Below, one piece after another: positions 5,600 to 45,708 of a stretch of DNA of 47,761 bases. Both the position numbers and the translations under genes were made by a program. Numbering within the stretch: the first letter of the stretch is position 1; every line of letters starts with the position of its first letter. Below the pieces are notes generated by a model. That model ran no database searches. It was not told the DNA's origin and saw only the letters and a list, made by a program, of their open reading frames with translations. Origin of the DNA: Candidatus Sungbacteria bacterium RIFCSPLOWO2_01_FULL_54_21 (GTDB lineage: Bacteria > Patescibacteriota > Minisyncoccia > Sungbacterales > HO2-52-23); NCBI GenBank assembly GCA_001820725.1, contig MHQR01000026.1, positions 7,885 through 55,645 on the forward strand, read 5' to 3'.

Positions 5600-5626
5600 G
5601 CGTAAACGATTAACAATCGTTTACGC
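5600..5626. repeat. perfect hairpin palindrome GCGTAAACGATT-AAC-AATCGTTTACGC
   Basis: 12-bp arms with a 3-nt loop. A near-identical palindrome is at 37523..37551. On the minus strand it is followed by GAGTTTTCC, so it could also terminate galU. Confidence 0.6.
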
Positions 5627-5683
5627 CGCTGCCTACGTTACGCGGAGTTGCTAGCATGTCCCCGTACCCATCCGCCCATCGCA

Positions 5684-6565
5684 TCATTTTTTATACTTTT
5701 CCGTAAGCCAGGCGCCAAATTGCTCCCCTATCTCCGGATGTTTCAGTCCCATATCCACCACCGCCCGCATATAGCCCAGTTTATCGCCACAATCATAGTA
5801 TGTGCCTTTTACGACATATCCATAAAAATCATGGCCGTCTTGGGCGTAGGCGGCAATGGCCGGGGGAATATACAATTCGCCATGCACCGGCTCCACCCGC
5901 TCAAGATAGGGAATGAAATCGGGCGTGAGGACAAACCTCGTGAGCGTGGCAAGATTGGTTGGCGCGGTCCCCGGAGCCGGTTTCTCCACAGCGCGCTTTA
6001 TTTTCCACACACCCGGCTCAACCTCAACGCCGTCAATAACGCCGTATCGATGGGCATTTTCGGGCGTGACTTCCACAAGACAGGTAACGGGCGCGCGATA
6101 CTTTTTATACACGGCTATCATCTGCGCCAATGCCGAGGGTTGGGCATCTATAATGTCATCCCCGGACAGCACGGCAAACGACTCGCCGTCAAAAAAGGGC
6201 TTGGCGGCAAGCACCGCGTCCGCAACGCCTTTTTGCTCCATCTGCCTCACAGACCCAAAAGACGCAAGCGACGATATTTCGCGGACAATGCGCAACGCTT
6301 CACCTTTTCCTTTGATCTCTAGAAAATGCTCCACTTCTGGTGCGCGATCAAAGTAGTCCTCAATCGCCAGCTTTCCCTTGCCCGTAACCAAAAGTATATC
6401 TTTCAGCCCTGCGCTCACGATCTCCTCTGCGAGAAAATGCACGAGCGGCTTGTCCACCAACGGGAGCATTTCTTTGGGAATTGCTTTGGTAACTGGAAGA
6501 AAACGCGTGCCGTAACCGGCCACGAGAATGATTGCTTTCTTTATATCGGTCATAGTATCAGACAT
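5684..6565 (-). CDS. galU: UTP--glucose-1-phosphate uridylyltransferase
   Basis: KAIILVAGYGTRFLPVTKAIPKEMLPLVDKPL N-terminal nucleotidyltransferase motif. 293 aa, typical length. Confidence 0.9.
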   Translation of the reverse strand: MSDTMTDIKKAIILVAGYGTRFLPVTKAIPKEMLPLVDKPLVHFLAEEIVSAGLKDILLVTGKGKLAIEDYFDRAPEVEHFLEIKGKGEALRIVREISSLASFGSVRQMEQKGVADAVLAAKPFFDGESFAVLSGDDIIDAQPSALAQMIAVYKKYRAPVTCLVEVTPENAHRYGVIDGVEVEPGVWKIKRAVEKPAPGTAPTNLATLTRFVLTPDFIPYLERVEPVHGELYIPPAIAAYAQDGHDFYGYVVKGTYYDCGDKLGYMRAVVDMGLKHPEIGEQFGAWLTEKYKK

Positions 6566-20173: not shown

Positions 20174-20278
20174 CCGCTCCCGATGTTGCGAGAGGTTCAA
20201 CCGCACGGCACCTGCGGGACACTGCCCCAAGTCCCCGATGTGCCGTGCCAAGCAACTTCACACAATATCGGTAGCGGG
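20174..20278 (+). repeat. R-type palindromic element, copy R1 (intergenic)
   Basis: 5' arm CCGCTCCCGATGTTG pairs with 3' arm CAATATCGGTAGCGG. Inner 9-bp stem GCACGGCAC/GTGCCGTGC. Arms are shared with 36963, 37510 and 44860(rev). Confidence 0.8.
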
Positions 20279-27916: not shown

Positions 27917-28510
27917 TCATCTCACGGAGAAGGATGCGCGATGGATGGGCGAGAAGCCATGTTGTTTCAGCAGGCGCCTATGCAAAACCGTGCCATATCC
28001 TTTGTGCAGATCAAAGCGGTACAGGGGAAATTTCTTGTGCGTACGTACCATGAGCCGGTCGCGCGTAACTTTGGCGATGATGGACGCCGCAGAAACGGCA
28101 GGGATTTTTTCATCCCCTTTTATGATCGCCTTGTAGCGTACAGAAGAGGGCAGTGTTAGTCCGGCATCCACGAGCACAGATTCCAGACTAAGTCTGGAAT
28201 CTCGTTCCAGACTTAGTCTGGAATAAACACGGCGGGCGCCAAGATTTCCTGCCGCAGATATATTTATCCGATCAATCACCATGGGCGACACCCGCGCGAC
28301 CGCCCATTCAATTGCGGGATGATGCGTCAGCACGCGATACCATGCTTCGCGCTGTGCAGGACTCAATTTTTTAGAATCGCGAATGCCGAAAAGCACGCGG
28401 CGCGCATGTCCTGGCTTTATTTTCACGCCTGCGACCACGACGGGTCCTGCCAGCGGCCCGCGCCCCGCCTCATCAATACCGATGATAAAGGTTTCTCTGT
28501 TGCCCTGCAT
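27917..28510 (-). CDS. rnhB: ribonuclease HII (carries an in-frame palindromic insert)
   Basis: Start moved to MQGNRETFIIGIDEAGRGPLAGPVV. IIKGDEKIPAVSAASIIAK. Insert SRLSLERDSRLSLE is encoded by 28181..28223. Confidence 0.9.
   Translation of the reverse strand: MQGNRETFIIGIDEAGRGPLAGPVVVAGVKIKPGHARRVLFGIRDSKKLSPAQREAWYRVLTHHPAIEWAVARVSPMVIDRINISAAGNLGARRVYSRLSLERDSRLSLESVLVDAGLTLPSSVRYKAIIKGDEKIPAVSAASIIAKVTRDRLMVRTHKKFPLYRFDLHKGYGTVLHRRLLKQHGFSPIHRASFSVR
28181..28223. repeat. P19 palindrome doublet inside rnhB
   Basis: TTCCAGACTAAGTCTGGAA + TCTCG + TTCCAGACTTAGTCTGGAA. Each unit is a perfect 19-bp palindrome. Confidence 0.9.
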
Positions 28511-28535
28511 GGTTTGTATAGTACAATGGGCTACG

Positions 28536-31500
28536 ATGAAATTCACGCATTTGCATGTCCATTCGCATTACAGCTTGCTCGACGGGCTGGCAAAAATCGA
28601 CGGGCTGGTAGCGCGCGCGGCAGAGCTTGGTATGCGGGCGCTGGCGCTCACCGATCATGGCAATCTCTACGGCGCCATAGAGTTTTACCAAAAAGCAAAA
28701 AAAGCCGGCATCAAACCCATCATCGGGGTGGAGGCGTACATCGCGTACGAAAAAATGACTGATCGGCGCCCACAGATCGACGACAAGCGGTATCACCTCA
28801 CTATTCTCGCGGAAAATACCGAAGGATATCACAACCTCATTAAAGCGGTCACCGCATCCCACCTCCACGGCTTCTATTATAAGCCGCGCATGGACAAAGA
28901 TCTTTTGCGCCGGCACGCCAAAGGACTCATCGCGCTCTCCGGATGCTTTAACGGCGAAATCCCCCGCGCGATTCAAAACAAAAAGATGGACGTGGCAGAG
29001 CGGCTCGTCCGCGAGTACCAGGATATTTTCGGCCGCGACAATTTCTATCTGGAAATCATGCCGCACACGGCATTTGCGGACCAGAAGCCGACCAACGAGG
29101 CGCTCGCCGTACTGGCGGGGAAAACCGGCGCCAAACTCGTCGCCACCAACGACATACATTATATACACGCCGAAGACGCCGAAGCGCAAGACATTCTCGT
29201 GTCCATCCAAACCGGATCGCGCATGGATGATGAAAATCGCCTCACGATGAAAAAAGCGAATCTTTCCCTGCGATCGGCCGATGATATGGCGGCGCTTTTT
29301 GCCGATCATCCGTTAGCGATTGCCGCCACGGAGGAAATCGCATCGCGCGTGGATATCCGCCCGGAACTTGGCACATGGATCCTTCCCACGCCGCGTCTCG
29401 AAAAAGAAACGGATCACGGGAAAGAGTTGCGACGTCTTACCTACGAGGGCATCGCACAGCGCGGGCTGGAGGAGACCCCCGAGGTTACCCGACGTATTGA
29501 ATACGAGCTCGACATCATCGCCAAGCGCGGATTTCTTGCTTACTACCTAGTGGTCGCGGATTTTCTGCGTTTTGCGCATGAACAGAAAATCTTTACTACG
29601 GTACGGGGGTCCGGCGGAGGATCGCTGGTTGCATACCTCACCGGCATCACGCCGGTAAATCCCCTCGAATACAAGCTTCCGTTTGAGCGGTTTCTCAATC
29701 TTGAGCGGCCGGCGCCGCCGGATTTCGACATGGATTTCGCGGACAACCGACGAGACGAAATGCTCGAATATGCAAAACACACATACGGAGAAGATCGTGT
29801 CGCCCAGATCGGTACGTTCGGCACCATGGCGGCGCGCGCGGCGGTGCGCGATGTCGCGCGCGCGCTGGGATATCCCTACGGCATGGGCGACCGGATTGCC
29901 AAGCTCATTCCCATCGGCGCGCAGGGATTTCCCATGACCCTTGACCGGGCGCTCAAGGAAACGCCGGAGCTGAAACACATCTATGACACAGATCCTGATG
30001 TCAAGCGTATTATTGATCGCTCGAAAAAACTTGAAGGGTGCGTGCGGCACGCATCGGTCCATGCCGCAGGAGTCGTAATTTCTCCGTCCCCGCTTGTGGA
30101 ATACATACCGCTTCAGTTGGACCCCAAAGGAGGAAAAATTATCACACAATACGAAATGACATCCATCGATCCCTCGTATTCGCCGGATCCTGCATTTGCT
30201 GTGGGATTGCCGAAAATAGATTTCTTGGGCATACGCAACCTTTCTATTCTGGAAGATGCCATCCGTTTGGTAAAACTCCATCAGAACATCGACGTAGACA
30301 TAGAAAAAATTCCCCTTGACGACACAAAGACATTCACTCTTCTTGCCAACGGCGAAACCATGGGGCTGTTCCAGCTGGGAGGATCAGGCATGACAAAATA
30401 TCTCAAAGACCTTAAGCCGACGACGATTCACGATATCAACGCAATGGTGGCGCTCTACCGCCCCGGCCCCCTCGAATCCATTCCTACCTATATTCAGCGC
30501 AAGCACAGCCCGCACCTCGTTTCTTATCTTGACCCGCGCATGAAAGATATTCTCGGCCAATCGTACGGCGTCATCGTCTATCAGGACGACGTCATGCTCA
30601 TCGCAATCAATCTTGCGGGCTATTCATGGCTTGAAGCGGATAAGTTGCGCAAGGCCATGGGGAAAAAGATACCGGCGGAAATGGCCGCGCAAAAAGAAAA
30701 ACTCGCGGAGGGACTGCGTAAAAACGGGATGCCCCAGCACAAAATAGAGACCCTATGGAAATTGATCGAGCCGTTTGCGGCATATGGATTCAACAAGTCG
30801 CACGCCGCCTGCTATGGCCGCGTCGCGTACCAAACCGCCTACATGAAGGCCAACTTTCCTGGAGAATATATGACCGCGGTGCTCACCGCGGAATCCGGCG
30901 ATATGGAGACAATCGCCGAGATCATCACCGAATGCATGCGCATGGGCATCCCGGTGCTTGCGCCCGATGTAAACGAGAGTCATGCAAGATTCACCCTTAT
31001 TAAAAAATCGGGTACTGCCGAAAGCGACACTATACGCTTCGGTCTTGAAACTATAAAAAACGTAGGCACGAACATCGTCGAAGCGCTCATAGCCGAACGG
31101 GAAGCACAAGGGAAATTTATCTCGCTCGCCGATTTTTGCGAGCGCGTGCGGCACAAGGACTTCAATAAAAAGTCGTTGGAGTCCTTGATGAAATGCGGAG
31201 CCCTCGACGGCCTCGGCGAGCGCGGCGCATTGCTCGCCAATCTTGATCTTCTGCTCGACTACAACCGCGAATCGCAGAAAACCGCCCAGCAAGGACAGAC
31301 GTCTCTTTTTTCTGCTTCCCCCGCCACGCACGCATCATCGCTCTATCTCAAGCCCGCCGAGCCGGCGGCCAAACGCGACCGCCTGCAATGGGAGAAAGAG
31401 CTCCTCGGCCTGTACCTCACCGAGCACCCGATGCTGGAATACCTCAAGCGTCTGGGACGGCGAAAGCTGGTGCCCTTCAAAGAGATCACCCCTGCCTTGC

Positions 31501-36133: not shown

Positions 36134-37153
36134 ATGCAGAAAATCATTGTCATCGTAGGCCCTACGGCATCGGGCAAATCGGCGCTCGCGGTCTTGCTCG
36201 CAAAAAAATTCAACGGCGAAGTCGTCTCCGCCGATTCGCGTCAGGTGTATCGCGGACTTGAAATCGGATCCGCCGCAATCACTGATAGAGAAATGCGAGG
36301 CGTGCCGCATCACCTTGTCGGCATTGTCTCGCCGCGAGAGGTATGTACCACTGGACACTTTGTCGCGGCGGCTCGGGACGCGATCGCCGATATCGCGCGG
36401 CGAGGCCGCGTCCCCATTGTCGCGGGCGGCACCGCATTCTGGGTCAATGCCCTAGCGCAAGGCATCGTCTTGCCCGAAATAAAGCCAGATACGGCGCTCC
36501 GCCGGCGGCTTGAGAAAAAATCAGCCGCCCAACTCTTTGCCATACTCAAAAAAGCAGACCCCCGCCGCGCAGGGGATATTGAACAACAAAATCCTCGCCG
36601 CCTGATCCGCGCCATCGAAATCGCGCGCTCGCTGGGCCGCGTCCCCCCTTTTGTTAAACACCGAGTGTTTAACACGCTGTGGCTCGGCCTCAATCCGGCT
36701 CCGGTGCTGCTCGCCCGCCGCGTCACGGCGCGCGCAGAGCGCATGATTCGCGACGGCCTTGCCGCAGAGACCCGGGCGCTCGCGCGAAGCATCCCTATAA
36801 AACGCGTCCGCGAATTTGGATTTGAGTATCGCGCGGCGCTTTTGTATAACCGCGGCGAGCTGACGCGCAAACAGTTTGCCGCGCGCCTCGTGGCCGACAC
36901 CCTGCACTATGCAAAACAGCAAAACCGATGGTGGAAACGCAATCCGGCCATTTATTGGATTACCGCTCCCGATGTTGCGCGACGTTTCGGAGCACGGCAC
37001 AAATGGGACAATGTCCACGCCGCGGCAATCTCACTCGTCAAAAAATTCTTGCAAAAAAGTCCCTCACGGACTGCCAAAAACCGGCTGACGTTTCGGGCGG
37101 CGCCGGCCGTTCGTCCGGCACGACCACGACGACTTCCTCGCCCGGGTTCTTGA
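36134..37153 (+). CDS. miaA: tRNA dimethylallyltransferase
   Basis: P-loop GPTASGKSALAV, SADSRQVYRGLEIGSA. The C-terminal region contains repeat R2 in frame and a 33-aa Arg/Pro-rich tail overlapping the convergent gene. Confidence 0.9.
   Translation: MQKIIVIVGPTASGKSALAVLLAKKFNGEVVSADSRQVYRGLEIGSAAITDREMRGVPHHLVGIVSPREVCTTGHFVAAARDAIADIARRGRVPIVAGGTAFWVNALAQGIVLPEIKPDTALRRRLEKKSAAQLFAILKKADPRRAGDIEQQNPRRLIRAIEIARSLGRVPPFVKHRVFNTLWLGLNPAPVLLARRVTARAERMIRDGLAAETRALARSIPIKRVREFGFEYRAALLYNRGELTRKQFAARLVADTLHYAKQQNRWWKRNPAIYWITAPDVARRFGARHKWDNVHAAAISLVKKFLQKSPSRTAKNRLTFRAAPAVRPARPRRLPRPGS
36963..37030 (+). repeat. R-type element, copy R2 (inside the miaA coding region)
   Basis: CCGCTCCCGATGTTGCGCGACGTTTCGGAGCACGGCACAAATGGGACAATGTCC. 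Aligns with R3 over the 5' arm, the TTCGGAGCA segment and GGGACAATGTCC. Translated as APDVARRFGARHKWDNVHAA. The 3' boundary is approximate. Confidence 0.7.
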
Positions 37154-37509: not shown

Positions 37510-37640
37510 CCGCTCCCGATGTTGTGTAAACGATTATTAATCGTTTACACATTTCGGAGCAAGGCGCCTTTGGGACAATGTCCCCGCGAGACAGTGTCTC
37601 GCGTGCCATGCTATGCAACATCGGACAATTTCGGCAGCGG
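37510..37640 (+). repeat. R-type element, copy R3 (intergenic, with nested palindromes)
   Basis: 5' arm CCGCTCCCGATGTTG and 3' arm CAACATCGGACAATTTCGGCAGCGG. Contains the 29-nt palindrome TGTGTAAACGATTA-T-TAATCGTTTACACA (37523-37551), GGGACAATGTCCC and CGCGAGACA-G-TGTCTCGCG. Abuts the lepA stop. Confidence 0.8.
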
Positions 37641-39561: not shown

Positions 39562-41280
39562 TTATTTCTCCGCCTCTCCCCCCCATTCTGCGGGAAGGCG
39601 GCGTAGAGAGAACAGGCGCCGGGTGATGCTTTTTCGCAACGCTCCAACCTCCTCGTTCCCTAGCATAGAGAGCACCGCCCAATATACCCCGAAGCCGGCT
39701 CCTGCCGCCACTGCCCCCTGCAGGAGCACGCGCGCAAAGGTGATGAGCGGCAGGGTCTGGGAAAAACTGGCGCGGACCGCATACGCGGCAATACCTGCGC
39801 CGAGCGCGGCGCAGGCGATTTGCCCGATTGTCTTTGCTCCCGTCGGCGCGGCCCTGATACCAAACCGCCGCCGGGCCGCCCGGATGAGCAGGATCCACAG
39901 CGCCAGGGCGTTGATCACCACGCCCGCGGCAAACGCGAGACCCATCCCCAGCACCGCAGGATGCGCCATGTCCTGGATGCGGAAAAGCGCGGCAATGGCG
40001 ACGCTTTCCGGCGAAGCCCGCCCAAGCGCCCGCGTCAAAGCCCAGGCGATACCGACCGTGCCCACAGACGTTACCGCATTTACGGCAAGCGGTATACGCG
40101 TATTTCCCAAAGCATAAAATCCGCGGATGAGCAGGATATGGAGGGCTCCGGCCGCCATGGCGATGCATAATGAGGCCAGCACCGCCGCCGTAAGCCGCGT
40201 GTCTTCCCAGGAAAATGCGCCAGCGCCGAGACCAACGCGCACGATGTGCGCGCGCAGAACGAGGACGAGAACCGCCGCAGGCATTACCCAGAAAAGAATG
40301 CTGTGTATGCCGGCTGATAATTCTTCCAGAAAGTCCCTCCCCGAATCCAGCGCCGCCGCCCGCGCCATGCGCGGAAACACCGCAACCGCGTAACTTGCGG
40401 CAAAGATGCCGATGGGCACGAAATACAAATCATACGCTGCGGAAAAGACGGCCACGCTTCCTTCAGCGAGCGTCGAGCCGATTGCAATAAGAACCAGCAC
40501 CGTCAGCTGGGAAAGAGAGATGGCGAGCACGCGGGGAAAAGAAAGTACGAGCACCTTCCGTATGCCAACAGCAATTCCAGACTTAGTCTGGAATTTCCAG
40601 ACTAAGTCTGGAATTCTCGTGAGACCAAACCCGAGGCGCGCGGCGAAGATATATTGCACCGACATATGGAGCAGTGCGCCGAGCGCCACGCCCATACCAA
40701 GCCCCCTCACGCCGAAGATAGGCACAAACAGCAGGATGCCGACCACGATGCCCATGTTGTAGAGGATGGGCGCCAGGGCATAGACAAAGAAGAGCCGGAA
40801 TGATTGCAGAACCACGGAGAAGATACCGGACAGACCGAAAAGAATCGGGGATATGAGCATGAGCCGGACCAGAGCGGTCATGAGTGAGCGCTCGCCGGAG
40901 GAAAAGCCGGGCGCTATCAAGGGGACGATGGCCGGTACGGCAAAAAATACCACCGCGGAAAGCGCGAGCGCGGCGAGAAAAAAGAGTGTGGAAAGGGCGG
41001 CAATGAATGCTTTGGCTTTTTTTCTGTCTTCAATCAAGTACTCCTGAAATATCGGCAGGATGGCGGCCGATGCCGCGCCCAGCAAAAACACTGCGGCCAT
41101 GAAGTCGGGTATCTGGAACGCCGCGTAATAGATATCCAACTCCCGCCCCGCGCCGAATTCGGCGAAAAGCAAACGGTTGCGCACGACACCCACCAGCCGG
41201 CTCGCCAGTCCTGCGGTGCCCAAAAGAAGCGCCGCGGCATGGACGTTCGCCACTTCCTGTTTCAGAAACGCAAGTCGCAC
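39562..41280 (-). CDS. murJ: lipid II flippase MurJ (carries an in-frame palindromic insert)
   Basis: LLGTAGLASRLVGVVRNRLLFAEFGAG.ELDIYYAAFQIPDF N-terminus, about 14 TM helices. Insert IPDLVWKFQTKSGI is encoded by 40575..40613. Confidence 0.9.
   Translation of the reverse strand: MRLAFLKQEVANVHAAALLLGTAGLASRLVGVVRNRLLFAEFGAGRELDIYYAAFQIPDFMAAVFLLGAASAAILPIFQEYLIEDRKKAKAFIAALSTLFFLAALALSAVVFFAVPAIVPLIAPGFSSGERSLMTALVRLMLISPILFGLSGIFSVVLQSFRLFFVYALAPILYNMGIVVGILLFVPIFGVRGLGMGVALGALLHMSVQYIFAARLGFGLTRIPDLVWKFQTKSGIAVGIRKVLVLSFPRVLAISLSQLTVLVLIAIGSTLAEGSVAVFSAAYDLYFVPIGIFAASYAVAVFPRMARAAALDSGRDFLEELSAGIHSILFWVMPAAVLVLVLRAHIVRVGLGAGAFSWEDTRLTAAVLASLCIAMAAGALHILLIRGFYALGNTRIPLAVNAVTSVGTVGIAWALTRALGRASPESVAIAALFRIQDMAHPAVLGMGLAFAAGVVINALALWILLIRAARRRFGIRAAPTGAKTIGQIACAALGAGIAAYAVRASFSQTLPLITFARVLLQGAVAAGAGFGVYWAVLSMLGNEEVGALRKSITRRLFSLRRLPAEWGGEAEK
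40575..40613. repeat. P19 palindrome doublet inside murJ
   Basis: TTCCAGACTTAGTCTGGAA + T + TTCCAGACTAAGTCTGGAA. Same two units as in rnhB, in swapped order. Confidence 0.9.
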
Positions 41281-44494: not shown

Positions 44495-45708
44495 GTGAGC
44501 GTCGGCCGCAGGGCAATATCGGTAAGCGACTCATTACGCGTGTACACCCCCTCTTTGGTCATAATATTTTTCCGATCCGATCGCGGCTTCCGCTGTTTCC
44601 CCCGACCCTTATGGACGACGTGGAGCGGGAAGAATTCAAAATAGTCCTTTTCATCAAACCACGCGCATTTGAAAGCATACATGCGCAGGCCCGTGAGCCG
44701 CGAGAGCGCCATGGCGTAAAGCGTCAATTGCTCGATCGGCTTTTCTTTTGCCGCATTGGGCTTGTAGTCGAGAATATGTATCTGGCCGTTACGCACCTGC
44801 ACGAGATCAATGTGGCCGGTAATCAATCGGGGAAGTTCCTCTGCCGACAATTGACGTAACCCGCTACCGATATTGTCCGCTTTTACAGCAAGTCCCAATT
44901 GGGACTTGCCTCGACGCCGGGCAACATCGGGAGCGTATAACTCAAACCCCAACTGTCTCTGCATATGCAACAAATCGTCCTTTCTAATGTACACCGGCAC
45001 TTCGACCGCCACGGTTACCGTATCGTTAGCAAGCATGAATTTCTGCACTGCCTCGTGCCGGTCTTTGTTCCTCTCCACTCCCTGCAGGGCGAATGCGGCG
45101 AGCGCATTGGCAAAATTATGTTTTGACCGCACGATCATCTGCTCCTTTGAAAACCGCAGAGGCGATTCGGACATCCGCAGCCCTTCTTGAAAATACTGGT
45201 GCGGCGTCTCACTGGATACGAGCGACAAAAACTCGGCGAGCGGCCCGAAGCTGGCGTGCCTGATGTCTTCGCGGATGATCATCCTGGTTTTCGCCCGATG
45301 CCACATGAAGCGGTAGAGCTGGCGGTGCGCGAGTGTGGCTGTCTCTACCACATGCTCCGGCCGGAACATCTTGAGCGCGAACGGGCGATAGCGGTGATAC
45401 CGGCAGAGTTCCTTGAATTCTTCCACCCAGTTGGCTACCGTCGAAGCCGATATATCAAAATCCGTTTTCTGCTTTATGATCTTGCACGCCTGCTCCAGCG
45501 AAAATCCGAGGTTATAGTAGCTCATGGCATCAATGATCACGCGGTGCGGATAGTGCTTGCCTTTTACTTCCTTGGGCGTGAACGCGCGCAGGCACGAGCG
45601 GCACAGCCACAGCTGTACGCGCTCGCGCTTTTTTTCGCGCCATCCCCGCTTCACCGTATCCGGCGAGGCGCAATAGGCGCATGGTGTTGTGGACAACTTA
45701 CTTGACAT
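44491..45708 (-). CDS. InsA-like Zn-ribbon + HTH fused to a PD-(D/E)xK (RecB/Cas4-like) nuclease domain
   Basis: Start moved to MSSKLSTTPCAYCASPDTVKRGW..LCRSCLRAF (CxxC..CxxC). HTH-like FSLEQACKIIKQKTDFDISASTVANWV. C-terminus has VAVEVPVY .. GHIDLVQV .. IHILDYKP .. QLTLYAMAL (E, D, D-x-K and Q-x-x-x-Y motifs). Repeat R4 lies in frame between the E and D strands. Confidence 0.5.
   Translation of the reverse strand: MSSKLSTTPCAYCASPDTVKRGWREKKRERVQLWLCRSCLRAFTPKEVKGKHYPHRVIIDAMSYYNLGFSLEQACKIIKQKTDFDISASTVANWVEEFKELCRYHRYRPFALKMFRPEHVVETATLAHRQLYRFMWHRAKTRMIIREDIRHASFGPLAEFLSLVSSETPHQYFQEGLRMSESPLRFSKEQMIVRSKHNFANALAAFALQGVERNKDRHEAVQKFMLANDTVTVAVEVPVYIRKDDLLHMQRQLGFELYAPDVARRRGKSQLGLAVKADNIGSGLRQLSAEELPRLITGHIDLVQVRNGQIHILDYKPNAAKEKPIEQLTLYAMALSRLTGLRMYAFKCAWFDEKDYFEFFPLHVVHKGRGKQRKPRSDRKNIMTKEGVYTRNESLTDIALRPTLT
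44860..44935 (-). repeat. R-type element, copy R4 (inside the nuclease gene)
   Basis: On the minus strand: CGCTCCCGATGTTG ... GCAAGTCCCAATTGGGACTTGC (22-nt perfect palindrome) ... CAATATCGGTAGCGGG. Translated as APDVARRRGKSQLGLAVKADNIGSG. Confidence 0.8.

What the first reader, a model, noticed from the sequence alone, without database searches (positions are those of the whole stretch)
40575..40613. The same palindrome pair is in frame inside MurJ, read in other frames
TTCCAGACTTAGTCTGGAA, T, TTCCAGACTAAGTCTGGAA. In murJ the two units are translated as PDLVWK and FQTKSG, which are different frames from rnhB (SRLSLE). The unit read in the TTC CAG ACT frame is the A-centre variant (ACT AAG); the T-centre variant would give a TAG stop there. 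This is consistent with selection keeping the host ORF open. The insert falls in a predicted loop (..GFGLTR-IPDLVWKFQTKSGI-AVGIRKV..).
Basis: partly seen in the sequence, partly recalled or inferred. Interest (0 to 1): 0.75.

Follow-up and report, generated by a model that had tools for sequence, protein, structure and literature searches.

The report
REP-like palindrome pair inside murJ
The two 19-base palindromes inside the cell-wall flippase gene murJ are copies of a small repeated DNA element, linked to a REP-type (RAYT-like) transposase gene in the same genome, that sits in frame in loops of many housekeeping genes of a group of ultra-small groundwater bacteria.

Summary
Window 40575-40593 and 40595-40613 are two 19-nt palindromes, TTCCAGACTWAGTCTGGAA. 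They are reverse complements of each other, 1 nt apart, and in frame in murJ, where they encode PDLVWKFQTKSG in the TM6-TM7 linker. A second pair lies in rnhB.

The unit is a dispersed repeat of a clade of Candidatus Sungbacteria (CPR). I found 70 non-redundant sites in public MAGs and metagenomes. About half are in frame inside housekeeping genes (PolX, LigA, CCA enzyme, M17 peptidase, Mur ligase, KsgA and others), often at orthologous positions.

Units stay identical where flanks are only 53-79% identical. Doublets are mostly A-centre then T-centre.

The same genome encodes a single HUH-Y1 transposase-like gene. It passes Pfam Y1_Tnp, and its best fold match is E. coli TnpA-REP (4ER8). The gene is bracketed by an A-unit upstream and a T-unit that supplies its TAG stop. 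Sister lineages carry different CTWAG-centred palindromes at the same places.

This is a REP/REPIN-RAYT-like system living largely inside coding sequence. Mobilisation by the RAYT-like protein is inferred, not shown. Intragenic REPs and Rickettsia RPEs are known, so I rate it a new variant of a known kind.

The parts
40575..40593 (.). Palindromic unit 1: T-centre on the + strand and, being the first unit read on the murJ (-) coding strand, translated as (I)PDLVW(K).
40595..40613 (.). Palindromic unit 2: A-centre, the reverse complement of unit 1, translated in murJ as FQTKSG(I).
40573..40615 (.). The full 43-nt perfect palindrome made of both units plus AA/TT flanks. As single-stranded DNA it folds into one long hairpin (-21.3 kcal/mol, z = -10.4).
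   Evidence: (I23)
39562..41280 (-). Host gene murJ (lipid II flippase, 572 aa). The insert covers residues 223-236 in the TM6-TM7 linker.
28181..28199 (.). Unit of the same family in rnhB (A-centre on the + strand), read as SRLSLE.
28205..28223 (.). Unit of the same family in rnhB (T-centre on the + strand), 5 nt from the previous unit, read as SRLSLE.
27917..28546 (-). Host gene rnhB (RNase HII). The protein as called in public records is 197 aa and starts at the internal ATG. Orthologues in two other genomes carry a single unit at the same site.

Best explanation
The murJ palindrome pair is a doublet of REP-like hairpin units. Each unit is 19 nt, often 21 nt with W flanks, with core TTCCAGACT-W-AGTCTGGAA. 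The units belong to a dispersed repeat family of a Sungbacteria clade that is coupled to a RAYT-like HUH-Y1 tyrosine transposase gene.

**Shown**
- The family is multi-copy, with 70 non-redundant sites recovered, in at least 7 species-level MAGs plus the Rifle Sungbacteria.
- The source genome encodes the RAYT-like gene outside the window, and that gene is bracketed by the same units.
- Doublets are strongly biased to A-centre then T-centre, which is the order of the units around the RAYT gene.
- About half of the sites are in frame inside housekeeping genes, in loops or linkers.
- Units stay identical at orthologous sites while flanks diverge.

**Inferred**
- The Y1 enzyme recognises the unit as a single-strand DNA hairpin (8-bp stem, TWA loop). 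It then cuts and rejoins next to it, copying or maintaining units and doublets as proposed for REP/REPIN-RAYT systems.
- In these gene-dense genomes, insertions persist only when their length is a multiple of 3, they fall in one of the four stop-free readings (FQTKSG, SRLSLE on either orientation, PDLVW), and they land in a tolerant loop.
- In murJ the insert adds a short neutral peptide to the inter-lobe linker, which should be cytoplasmic given the known 14-TM MurJ topology. It is old: a 70%-identical orthologue shares it at the same codon, with a 22-nt spacer instead of 1 nt.
For: **Repeat family**
- The window holds 4 units against 0 expected.
- The genome-contig scan gave 40 loci, and all but one came from CPR MAGs. 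The metagenome scan gave 48 more.
- The census found 70 non-redundant sites, 36 of them intragenic. Doublet orientations were AT 23, TA 7, AA 3, and the commonest spacer was 4 nt, giving 42 nt = 14 codons. On the earlier exact set, AT was 22 of 25, p = 6e-11.

**Host genes**
- Pfam identifies PolX, M17 peptidase, CCA/polyA polymerase, LigA, Mur ligase, KsgA, class V aminotransferase, GT4, Asn synthase, Glu dehydrogenase, prepilin peptidase and RNase HII.
- Orthologous sites show 53-79% flank identity with identical unit arms.

**RAYT link**
- L015 1686-2348 and L046 6769-7404 hit Pfam Y1_Tnp at 31.6 and 31.8 bits against a gathering score of 23. The best NCBIfam match is REP-associated tyrosine transposase.
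- HUH (NHxH) and YIHxNP are invariant across 26 homologues.
- The AlphaFold model has pLDDT 93. Its best PDB fold match is 4ER8, TnpA-REP bound to a REP hairpin (E = 7.5e-6, TM 0.68), ahead of the IS200/IS605 transposases.
- Homologue P0123 carries locus tag A3J10_00990 from the same MAG as the window's MurJ, A3J10_02335.
- Its locus reads tRNA-Pro, A-unit, gene with an internal A-unit, T-unit overlapping the stop (..SFQT-TAG), tRNA-Gly.
- The UPF0102-RAYT-HU context is the same in L015, which fits a single-copy, vertically inherited gene.
- Three other RAYT lineages carry different CTWAG-centred palindromes at or near their RAYT genes. Each was found at only one or two of the three positions: stop codon in L056, internal in L057, upstream and stop in L058.

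**Hairpin potential**.
Against: - No transposition event was caught. I found no empty site with near-identical flanks, and no insert-free allele in the 90% MurJ cluster.
- The units lack the GTAG or CGTC tag of classical REPs.
- The protein scores below NCBIfam's RAYT cut-off (33-34 against 80 bits).
- Copy number appears to be tens per genome, against the hundreds usual for REPINs.
- The murJ pair has the minority T-then-A order.
- Identical units across flanks of about 68% identity could also reflect host-level selection on the motif rather than mobility.
- Single-copy status of the RAYT gene cannot be proven from fragmented MAGs.
Confidence: 0.78

Rival explanations
1. The 19-mer is a host-selected DNA or RNA signal rather than a mobile element. 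Candidates are a protein-binding site, a DNA-uptake sequence or a structural motif. It would accumulate and be preserved by selection or biased uptake, and the Y1 gene would be just one more place where it occurs.
For: - Unit arms are identical at orthologous sites whose flanks are only 53-79% identical.
- Few degenerate copies were seen relative to exact ones.
- No empty site or polymorphism was found.
- CPR bacteria carry type IV pilus and competence genes. Prepilin-type (N_methyl) genes are called in L001, which covers the same contig region as the window.
Against: - Density is about 1 per 10-30 kb, far below known uptake sequences, which run at about 1 per kb (my own knowledge).
- In murJ the units add length to the loop, which is 45 residues against the minimal 35-36, rather than arising by point mutation in existing codons.
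- The three-unit architecture around the Y1 gene recurs in lineages with different palindromes. This ties palindrome identity to the Y1 lineage.
- The AT order bias matches the order around that gene.
Confidence: 0.12
2. It is a miniature transposon (MITE) moved by some other transposase, such as a DDE enzyme, or spread by a homing endonuclease. The palindrome arms would act as terminal inverted repeats.
For: The elements are short, palindromic and dispersed, and their doublets resemble paired ends.
Against: - No target-site duplication or conserved flank was seen beyond a W at positions -1 and +1.
- No DDE transposase gene was called in the loci whose gene tables I saw.
- The only gene repeatedly bracketed by units is the HUH-Y1 gene.
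Confidence: 0.05
3. It is an ordinary, protein-level conserved loop of MurJ, or a palindrome created locally by template switching at that site.
For: - The TM6-TM7 loop varies in length across the family.
- Palindromy often extends into locus-specific flanks, for example GCCATTA..TAATGGC in L048. This suggests that some local hairpin-templated copying does occur.
Against: - The same 19-mer occurs in more than 15 unrelated genes, read in different frames, and in intergenic DNA.
- Only 2 of 120 MurJ homologues have the peptide.
- Chance expectation in the window is 0.
Confidence: 0.02

Closest known systems
REP / REPIN - RAYT systems (E. coli, Pseudomonas, Stenotrophomonas; Nunvar 2010, Bertels & Rainey 2011 PMC3116915, Ton-Hoang 2012, Messing 2012 PMC3479197)
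   Same: - Short hairpin-forming repeats, often as inverted doublets.
- An HUH-Y1 gene flanked by the same repeats in inverted orientation.
- The Y1 gene sits in a conserved chromosomal context and is not IS-like.
- One master sequence is shared across related genomes.
- Best fold match of the protein is TnpA-REP, 4ER8.
   Different: - No GTAG or CGTC tag; the conserved feature here is a CTWAG centre.
- Units are perfect 19-21-nt palindromes, and doublets span 38-60 nt, against about 100 nt for REPINs.
- About half the sites are intragenic and in frame, whereas REPINs are 'almost exclusively extragenic' (bioRxiv 10.1101/2021.07.10.451892).
- Copies number tens rather than hundreds.
- The protein scores below NCBIfam's RAYT cut-off.
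- The host is a CPR bacterium.
Intragenic REPs (Opitutus terrae GTAG REPs, R. conorii RPE-4/-6; Di Nocera et al. 2013, PMC3733652)
   Same: REP units and dimers lie inside ORFs for known proteins, many of them in replication and repair (uvrA, dnaE2, DNA ligase). The hosts here include rnhB, PolX and LigA.
   Different: The sequence superfamily is different, since these units are neither GTAG nor CGTC tagged. The intragenic fraction is much higher. The units stay identical at orthologous intragenic sites across deep divergence. One unit supplies the stop codon of the Y1 gene itself.
Rickettsia palindromic elements (RPE; Ogata et al. 2000, cited in PMC3733652)
   Same: Palindromic repeats inserted in frame into essential protein-coding genes, adding peptide segments at tolerant surface positions.
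   Different: RPE-1 elements are longer palindromic insertions than these units. That they measure roughly 100-150 bp is my own knowledge. No associated transposase is known for them, and they occur in Rickettsia. The units here are 19-21 nt and are linked to a Y1 gene.
Mitochondrial double-hairpin elements of Allomyces and other palindromic mtDNA repeats
   Same: Two adjacent short hairpins form one small element that occurs in intergenic DNA and in frame within coding genes.
   Different: These are organellar elements with an unrelated sequence and no associated HUH enzyme.

Membership tests
REP/REPIN-RAYT system | An HUH-Y1 (IS200-like) tyrosine transposase of the RAYT type is encoded in the same genome. 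| tested here: met
   Pfam Y1_Tnp scores 31.6 and 31.8 bits against a gathering score of 23. HUH and YIHxNP are invariant. The best fold match is 4ER8 TnpA-REP at E = 7.5e-6. P0123 carries the same MAG locus-tag prefix as the window's MurJ. Caveat: NCBIfam REP_Tyr_transpos scores only 33-34 bits against an 80-bit cut-off.
REP/REPIN-RAYT system | The RAYT gene is flanked by the repeats in inverted orientation. | tested here: met
   An A-unit lies 31-48 nt upstream and a T-unit overlaps the stop codon in L015, L046 and L052-55. L074, L092, L100 and L104 show the same unit spacing.
REP/REPIN-RAYT system | The same repeats are dispersed in many copies in that genome. | tested here: met
   In the source species: murJ, rnhB, the RAYT locus, and further loci from bin Ga0155895 (same species by the identical RAYT locus, L074), namely L070, L072 and L097. 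In CAYVMH01, about 20 exact units lie on 15 contigs. Copy number is in the tens, which is low for the family.
REP/REPIN-RAYT system | A conserved GTAG (or CGTC) tetranucleotide at the foot of an imperfect hairpin. | tested here: not met
   The unit TTCCAGACTWAGTCTGGAA contains neither tag. The flanks show only a W preference at -1 and +1. The conserved feature across lineages is the centre CTWAG.
REP/REPIN-RAYT system | Extragenic location. | tested here: not met
   36 of 70 non-redundant sites lie inside long ORFs with at least 50 codons on each side.
REP/REPIN-RAYT system | The RAYT is single-copy, chromosomal and vertically inherited. | tested here: inconclusive
   The same UPF0102 / tRNA / RAYT / tRNA / HU context occurs in genomes whose RAYTs are 75% identical. 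The MAGs are fragmented, so copy number cannot be fixed.
REP/REPIN-RAYT system | The RAYT binds and cleaves the REP hairpin in single-stranded DNA. | not testable with these tools
   This needs biochemistry. Only hairpin potential was computed.
Rickettsia palindromic elements (RPE) | A palindromic repeat inserted in frame in protein-coding genes. | tested here: met
Rickettsia palindromic elements (RPE) | Sequence families RPE-1 to -8 of Rickettsia, roughly 100-150 bp long. | tested here: not met
   The units are 19-21 nt and the host is Sungbacteria. I made no sequence comparison against RPEs; the size and host alone rule out membership.
IS200/IS605-derived MITEs (PATE-like) | Distinct left and right subterminal hairpins, insertion 3' of a fixed tetra- or pentanucleotide, and derivation from a multi-copy IS carrying tnpA and/or tnpB. 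| tested here: not met
   The two ends are one palindrome that differs only at its centre base. No conserved target motif was seen. No tnpB is called beside the Y1 gene in the gene tables.
DNA uptake sequences (DUS/USS) | Very high density (about 1 per kb), arising by point substitution in existing sequence. | tested here: not met
   The window holds 4 units in 47.8 kb. In murJ the units add length to the loop.

The most novel reading that the evidence does not exclude
The units are not merely tolerated insertions. They would be a vertically inherited, actively maintained REPIN-like population that has moved into coding sequence, because these tiny CPR genomes have almost no intergenic space.

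RAYT-dependent replacement, or host-level selection, would keep the units identical at orthologous intragenic sites for as long as it takes flanking coding DNA to diverge by 20-47%. The units would meanwhile donate 7-residue modules (FQTKSG, SRLSLE, PDLVW) to loops of more than 15 housekeeping proteins. They would also donate ready-made stop codons to gene ends, including the transposase's own stop.
Probability: 0.35. Interest if true: 0.72.

Novelty: new variant of a known kind. Interest (0 to 1): 0.6.

Why it matters
- **Phylogenetic reach.** It extends REP/RAYT biology to the Candidate Phyla Radiation. My searches of the paper library found no paper that links REP, REPIN or RAYT terms with CPR taxa.
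- **A coding-sequence lifestyle.** It shows a hairpin repeat family living largely inside essential genes. That gives a concrete source of loop insertions in CPR proteins.
- **Annotation.** Recurrent FQTKSG, SRLSLE and PDLVW peptides are DNA-level repeats, not protein motifs.
- **A natural experiment.** It shows which positions of MurJ, RNase HII, LigA, PolX and other proteins tolerate 7-20 extra residues.
- **A testable question.** Units stay perfectly conserved while their flanks diverge. This makes it possible to test whether RAYTs actively maintain their repeats.

Tried and rejected
- **Empty sites.** I ran blastn with 120-nt flanks of every site against all 107 fetched loci. Near-identical pairs always had the same fill state. 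Only divergent orthologues differed, and then only as single versus double units. Ascertainment limits this test, because only loci containing a unit were fetched.
- **Insert-free alleles.** All three members of the 90%-identity MurJ cluster are 572 aa.
- **Sequence search of the Y1 protein against PDB.** The single sequence gave nothing at E <= 1. The profile gave only weak hits to ISDra2 TnpA and 4ER8. The fold search was needed to settle it.
- **Rfam.** No family reaches its gathering score anywhere in the window.
- **Doublets as internal-deletion derivatives of the RAYT element.** By eye, the spacer sequences (cgct, cgta, tgct and others) do not match the sequence just inside the units that flank the RAYT gene. 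This is not supported.
- **Internal unit of the Y1 gene as an insertion.** The alignment shows it replaces a PxWK segment of distant homologues without adding length. I do not claim it is an insertion.
- **The one non-CPR hit.** L041 comes from a Hyphomicrobiales MAG. About 4 chance matches are expected in 596 Gb under uniform base composition (my own arithmetic), so I treat it as chance.
- **MAG labels.** The 'Saccharibacteria' labels on the TPA MAGs may be loose. P0002, from a MAG with a neighbouring accession prefix (CAYIBQ01), is 74% identical to the Sungbacteria MurJ.
- **Searches not spent.** I did not use the third large protein search on RnhB.
Full report
**1. The observation**

Window 40575-40613 reads TTCCAGACTTAGTCTGGAA-T-TTCCAGACTAAGTCTGGAA. 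With AA/TT flanks it is a perfect 43-nt palindrome, 40573-40615.

The degenerate 19-mer TTCCAGACTWAGTCTGGAA occurs four times in the window: 28181, 28205, 40575 and 40595. Dinucleotide-preserving shuffles give 0.00 expected. The T-centre and A-centre forms are reverse complements of each other.

The second pair lies in the RNase HII gene (27917-28546, minus strand; PF01351). The first lies in murJ (39562-41280, minus strand; PF03023).

On the murJ coding strand the units are read as ATT CCA GAC TTA GTC TGG AAA TTC CAG ACT AAG TCT GGA ATT. That gives I-PDLVWK-FQTKSG-I, residues 223-236. In rnhB both units are read as SRLSLE.

Of the six possible readings of a unit, two contain a stop: TAG for the T-centre form in phase 0, and TAA for the A-centre form in the CCA GAC TAA phase. 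The identical 39 nt occur in seven independent assemblies.

**2. Source organism**

The MurJ protein is 100% identical to a protein of Candidatus Sungbacteria bacterium RIFCSPLOWO2_02_FULL_54 (locus tag A3J10_02335, contig MHQN01000021). This is a CPR/Patescibacteria MAG.

**3. Insert or conserved loop**

In an alignment of 26 MurJ homologues, the segment between TM6 and the conserved SFPR motif is hypervariable.

Among the 120 closest homologues (at least 49% identity), only the window protein and P0003 (70% identity) contain PDLVW and FQTKSG. Loop length is bimodal: 35-36 residues in 34 proteins, 44-47 in 30, and up to 63. The window protein has 45. P0002 (74% identity) and P0004/5/7 lack the peptides.

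The DNA of P0003 (L048) has the same T-unit at the same codon after ..RLGF.., followed by a 22-nt spacer and then the A-unit. That makes 60 nt, or 20 codons, against 39 nt, or 13 codons, in the window.

The segment aligns with the TM6-TM7 loop of solved MurJ 7WAW. In an AlphaFold model (mean pLDDT 83.6) it lies between helices 192-215 and 234-269. Confidence there falls to 57-71. With the established 14-TM topology and both termini inside the cell, this loop should be the cytoplasmic inter-lobe linker. That last step is inference.

**4. A dispersed family**

A scan of one genome per GTDB species found the exact 19-mer in 40 loci. All but one came from seven CPR MAGs: CAYVMH01, CAYJOT01, CAYIAH01, CAZPDF01, CAYIEG01, CAYIQI01 and Sungiibacteriota JBASTK01. 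The exception, from a Hyphomicrobiales MAG, is within chance expectation. A metagenome scan added 48 loci from groundwater and related samples.

After removing duplicates there are 70 sites. Key features:
- Units occur singly or as doublets with spacers of 0-22 nt. The commonest spacer is 4 nt, which gives 42 nt or 14 codons.
- Doublet order is strongly biased to A-centre then T-centre. It is 22 of 25 among exact doublets (p = 6e-11), and 23 AT, 7 TA and 3 AA when degenerate partners are included.
- The base before a unit is A, T or G (39/18/11). The base after is T, A, C or G (41/14/12/1). The consensus is therefore a 21-mer, which equals seven codons.
- Palindromy extends further into locus-specific flanks more often than chance allows. 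Extension of at least 2 given at least 1 occurred in 22 of 33 cases, p = 2e-6. Examples are GCCATTA..TAATGGC in L048 and AGA..TCT in the window's rnhB.

**5. Coding-sequence lifestyle**

Thirty-six of the 70 sites lie inside long ORFs with at least 50 codons on each side. Pfam identifies these hosts:
- PolX, in the thumb-PHP linker
- M17 leucyl aminopeptidase
- CCA-adding / polyA polymerase
- NAD-dependent DNA ligase, where the insert splits the adenylation domain
- a Mur ligase
- KsgA
- a class V aminotransferase
- a GT4 glycosyltransferase
- asparagine synthase
- glutamate dehydrogenase
- prepilin peptidase
- a TPR membrane protein
- RNase HII and MurJ

Many sites are orthologous between genomes:
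- murJ: window and L048
- rnhB: a doublet in the window, single units in L019 and L021
- PolX: L009, L028, L044
- M17 peptidase: L011 single; L017 and L023 double
- CCA enzyme: L022, L039, L070, L096
- LigA: L029, L033

Over 150 nt on each side, flanks are 53-79% identical, mean 68%. The unit arms are identical, and only the centre base sometimes flips. For murJ, 38 of 38 unit positions are identical beside 68% identity in the flanks. If sites diverged independently at the flank rate, the probability would be about 4e-7 (my arithmetic).

Several ORFs also end in a unit's TAG or TAA. One example is an 864-codon ORF in L027.

**6. Link to a transposase**

Two loci had three units within about 700 bp. 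The ORF between them (L015 1686-2348; L046 6769-7404) passes Pfam Y1_Tnp, at 31.6 and 31.8 bits against a gathering score of 23. Its best NCBIfam match is REP-associated tyrosine transposase, but below that model's cut-off.

Twenty-six homologues keep NHxH (the HUH motif) and YIHxNP (the catalytic tyrosine region) invariant. An AlphaFold model of the source genome's copy (pLDDT 93) has E. coli TnpA-REP bound to a REP hairpin (4ER8) as its best PDB match. That match has E = 7.5e-6 and TM 0.68, ahead of the ISDra2, IS608 and IS200 transposases at E of about 1e-3.

The homologue P0123 (75% identical to the L015 protein) is A3J10_00990 of the same MAG as the window. Its locus, in order:
- tRNA-Pro
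- an A-unit 48 nt before the ATG
- the gene, with an internal A-unit read as FQTKSG just after YIHFNP
- a T-unit with one mismatch that supplies the stop (..SFQT-TAG)
- tRNA-Gly

The neighbours UPF0102 and HU are the same in L015. That fits a single-copy, vertically inherited gene. The window itself contains no homologue.

Three more distant lineages of the protein carry different palindromes at or near their RAYT genes, all centred on CTWAG. Each was found at only one or two of the three positions:
- GCTGTGCCAAGCTTAGCTTGGCACAGC at the stop codon (L056)
- TTCCTTGCTCCAGGCTAAGCCTGGAGCAAGGAA internally (L057)
- GTAAGCTAAGCTTAC upstream and TGATGCAAGCTTAGCTTGCATCA at the stop codon (L058)

Palindrome arms that change with the enzyme lineage, around a fixed centre, tie the repeat to the enzyme.

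**7. Mechanism**

*Shown:* the anatomy, distribution, frame usage, conservation and gene association described above. As single-stranded DNA, one unit folds into an 8-bp stem with a TWA loop (-6.2 kcal/mol). A doublet folds into one long hairpin (-21 to -27 kcal/mol, z = -9 to -12).

*Inferred:* by analogy with REP/REPIN-RAYT and IS200/IS605 chemistry, the Y1 enzyme recognises the hairpin on single-stranded DNA and cuts and joins next to it. The A-then-T order of the units around the gene matches the preferred order of doublets. Doublets therefore look like the two ends of the element without the gene.

Insertions survive in genes only if three conditions hold:
- their length is a multiple of three (21-nt units; 39-, 42- and 60-nt doublets)
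- their phase is stop-free
- they fall in a tolerant loop

The murJ pair has the minority T-then-A order. In its reading frame this is the only stop-free combination. It may be two adjacent single-unit insertions, and the longer spacer in L048 would then be closer to the ancestral state. Part of that spacer, TAATGGC, is an inverted copy of the upstream flank GCCATTA, which points to hairpin-templated extension.

**8. What remains open**

I found no empty site or polymorphism, so the rate of mobility and any current activity are unknown.

Perfect unit conservation beside diverged flanks is not explained by protein-level selection, because the peptides differ by frame. RecA-type gene conversion is also unlikely on 19-nt repeats. 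That point rests on my own knowledge of minimal homology lengths.

The remaining explanations are RAYT-dependent maintenance, as argued for REPINs (bioRxiv 10.1101/2021.07.10.451892), and host-level selection on the motif.

**9. Comparison with known systems**

REP/REPIN-RAYT is the closest mechanism. Intragenic REPs, many of them in repair genes, and Rickettsia RPEs are the closest precedents for the coding-sequence location (PMC3733652).

Differences from those systems:
- no GTAG or CGTC tag, and a conserved CTWAG centre instead
- very short, perfect palindromes
- about half of the sites in frame in genes
- identical units across deep divergence
- the enzyme's own stop codon sits inside the right-hand unit
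- a CPR host

My searches of the paper library found no paper that links REP, REPIN or RAYT terms with CPR taxa.

**10. Verdict**

It is a new variant of a known kind. Interest 0.6.

Noticed in passing
window 20174-20277, 36963-37020, 37549-37587, 44862-44935: A second, unrelated palindromic repeat family. Its outer arms are CCGCT(A/C)CCGAT(A/G)TTG ... CAA(C/T)ATCGG(G/T)AGCGG. They enclose an inner palindrome: GCACGGCAC..GTGCCGTGC in one copy and GCAAGTCCCAATTGGGACTTGC in another. Two further sites are half copies.
   Followed up: partly
window 5602-5624 and 37526-37548: Two near-identical 23-nt palindromes, GTAAACGATTAACAATCGTTTAC and GTAAACGATTATTAATCGTTTAC, lie 32 kb apart (I17). They could be operator-like sites or another small repeat.
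   Followed up: no
L051 about 5640-5760 (murJ of CAYIGN01, protein P0008): The same MurJ loop in a 60%-identical orthologue holds a different quasi-palindrome, CCCTAAACTTAGTTTGGG, with the same ACTTAGT centre and a distal partner AAGTTTAGGG. It also holds a tandem duplication of CGATCTCGTGAACAA. This loop seems to collect hairpin elements repeatedly.
   Followed up: partly
L052 10577-10595; L015 2337-2355; L046 7393-7411; L027 4767-4785; L024 7491; L030 2834: A unit's central TAG or TAA serves as the stop codon of real-looking genes. These include the RAYT-like gene itself (..FQT-stop) and an 864-codon ORF in L027. In these cases the element supplies both a C-terminal tail and the stop.
   Followed up: partly
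L052 9810-9880 and 10603-10673: In the source species the RAYT-like gene sits between tRNA-Pro(TGG) and tRNA-Gly(TCC). UPF0102 lies upstream and HU downstream, and L015 has the same UPF0102 and HU neighbours.
   Followed up: partly
L041 6695-6713 (Hyphomicrobiales MAG CAZVZP01): A single exact unit lies inside a 565-codon ORF of an unrelated alphaproteobacterial MAG. About 4 chance matches are expected in 596 Gb, so I treat it as chance. Contamination or transfer was not excluded.
   Followed up: no
window 40406-40762 (+): Because the insert is a perfect palindrome, the antisense strand of murJ also reads IPDLVWNFQTKSGI, inside a 118-codon open frame. I take this to be a mirror effect of the palindrome and not a gene.
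   Followed up: no
L001 14165-14939 (same contig region as the window): A HepT-like / nucleotidyltransferase (MNT) toxin-antitoxin pair lies among prepilin-type (N_methyl) genes, near miaA and thrS.
   Followed up: no
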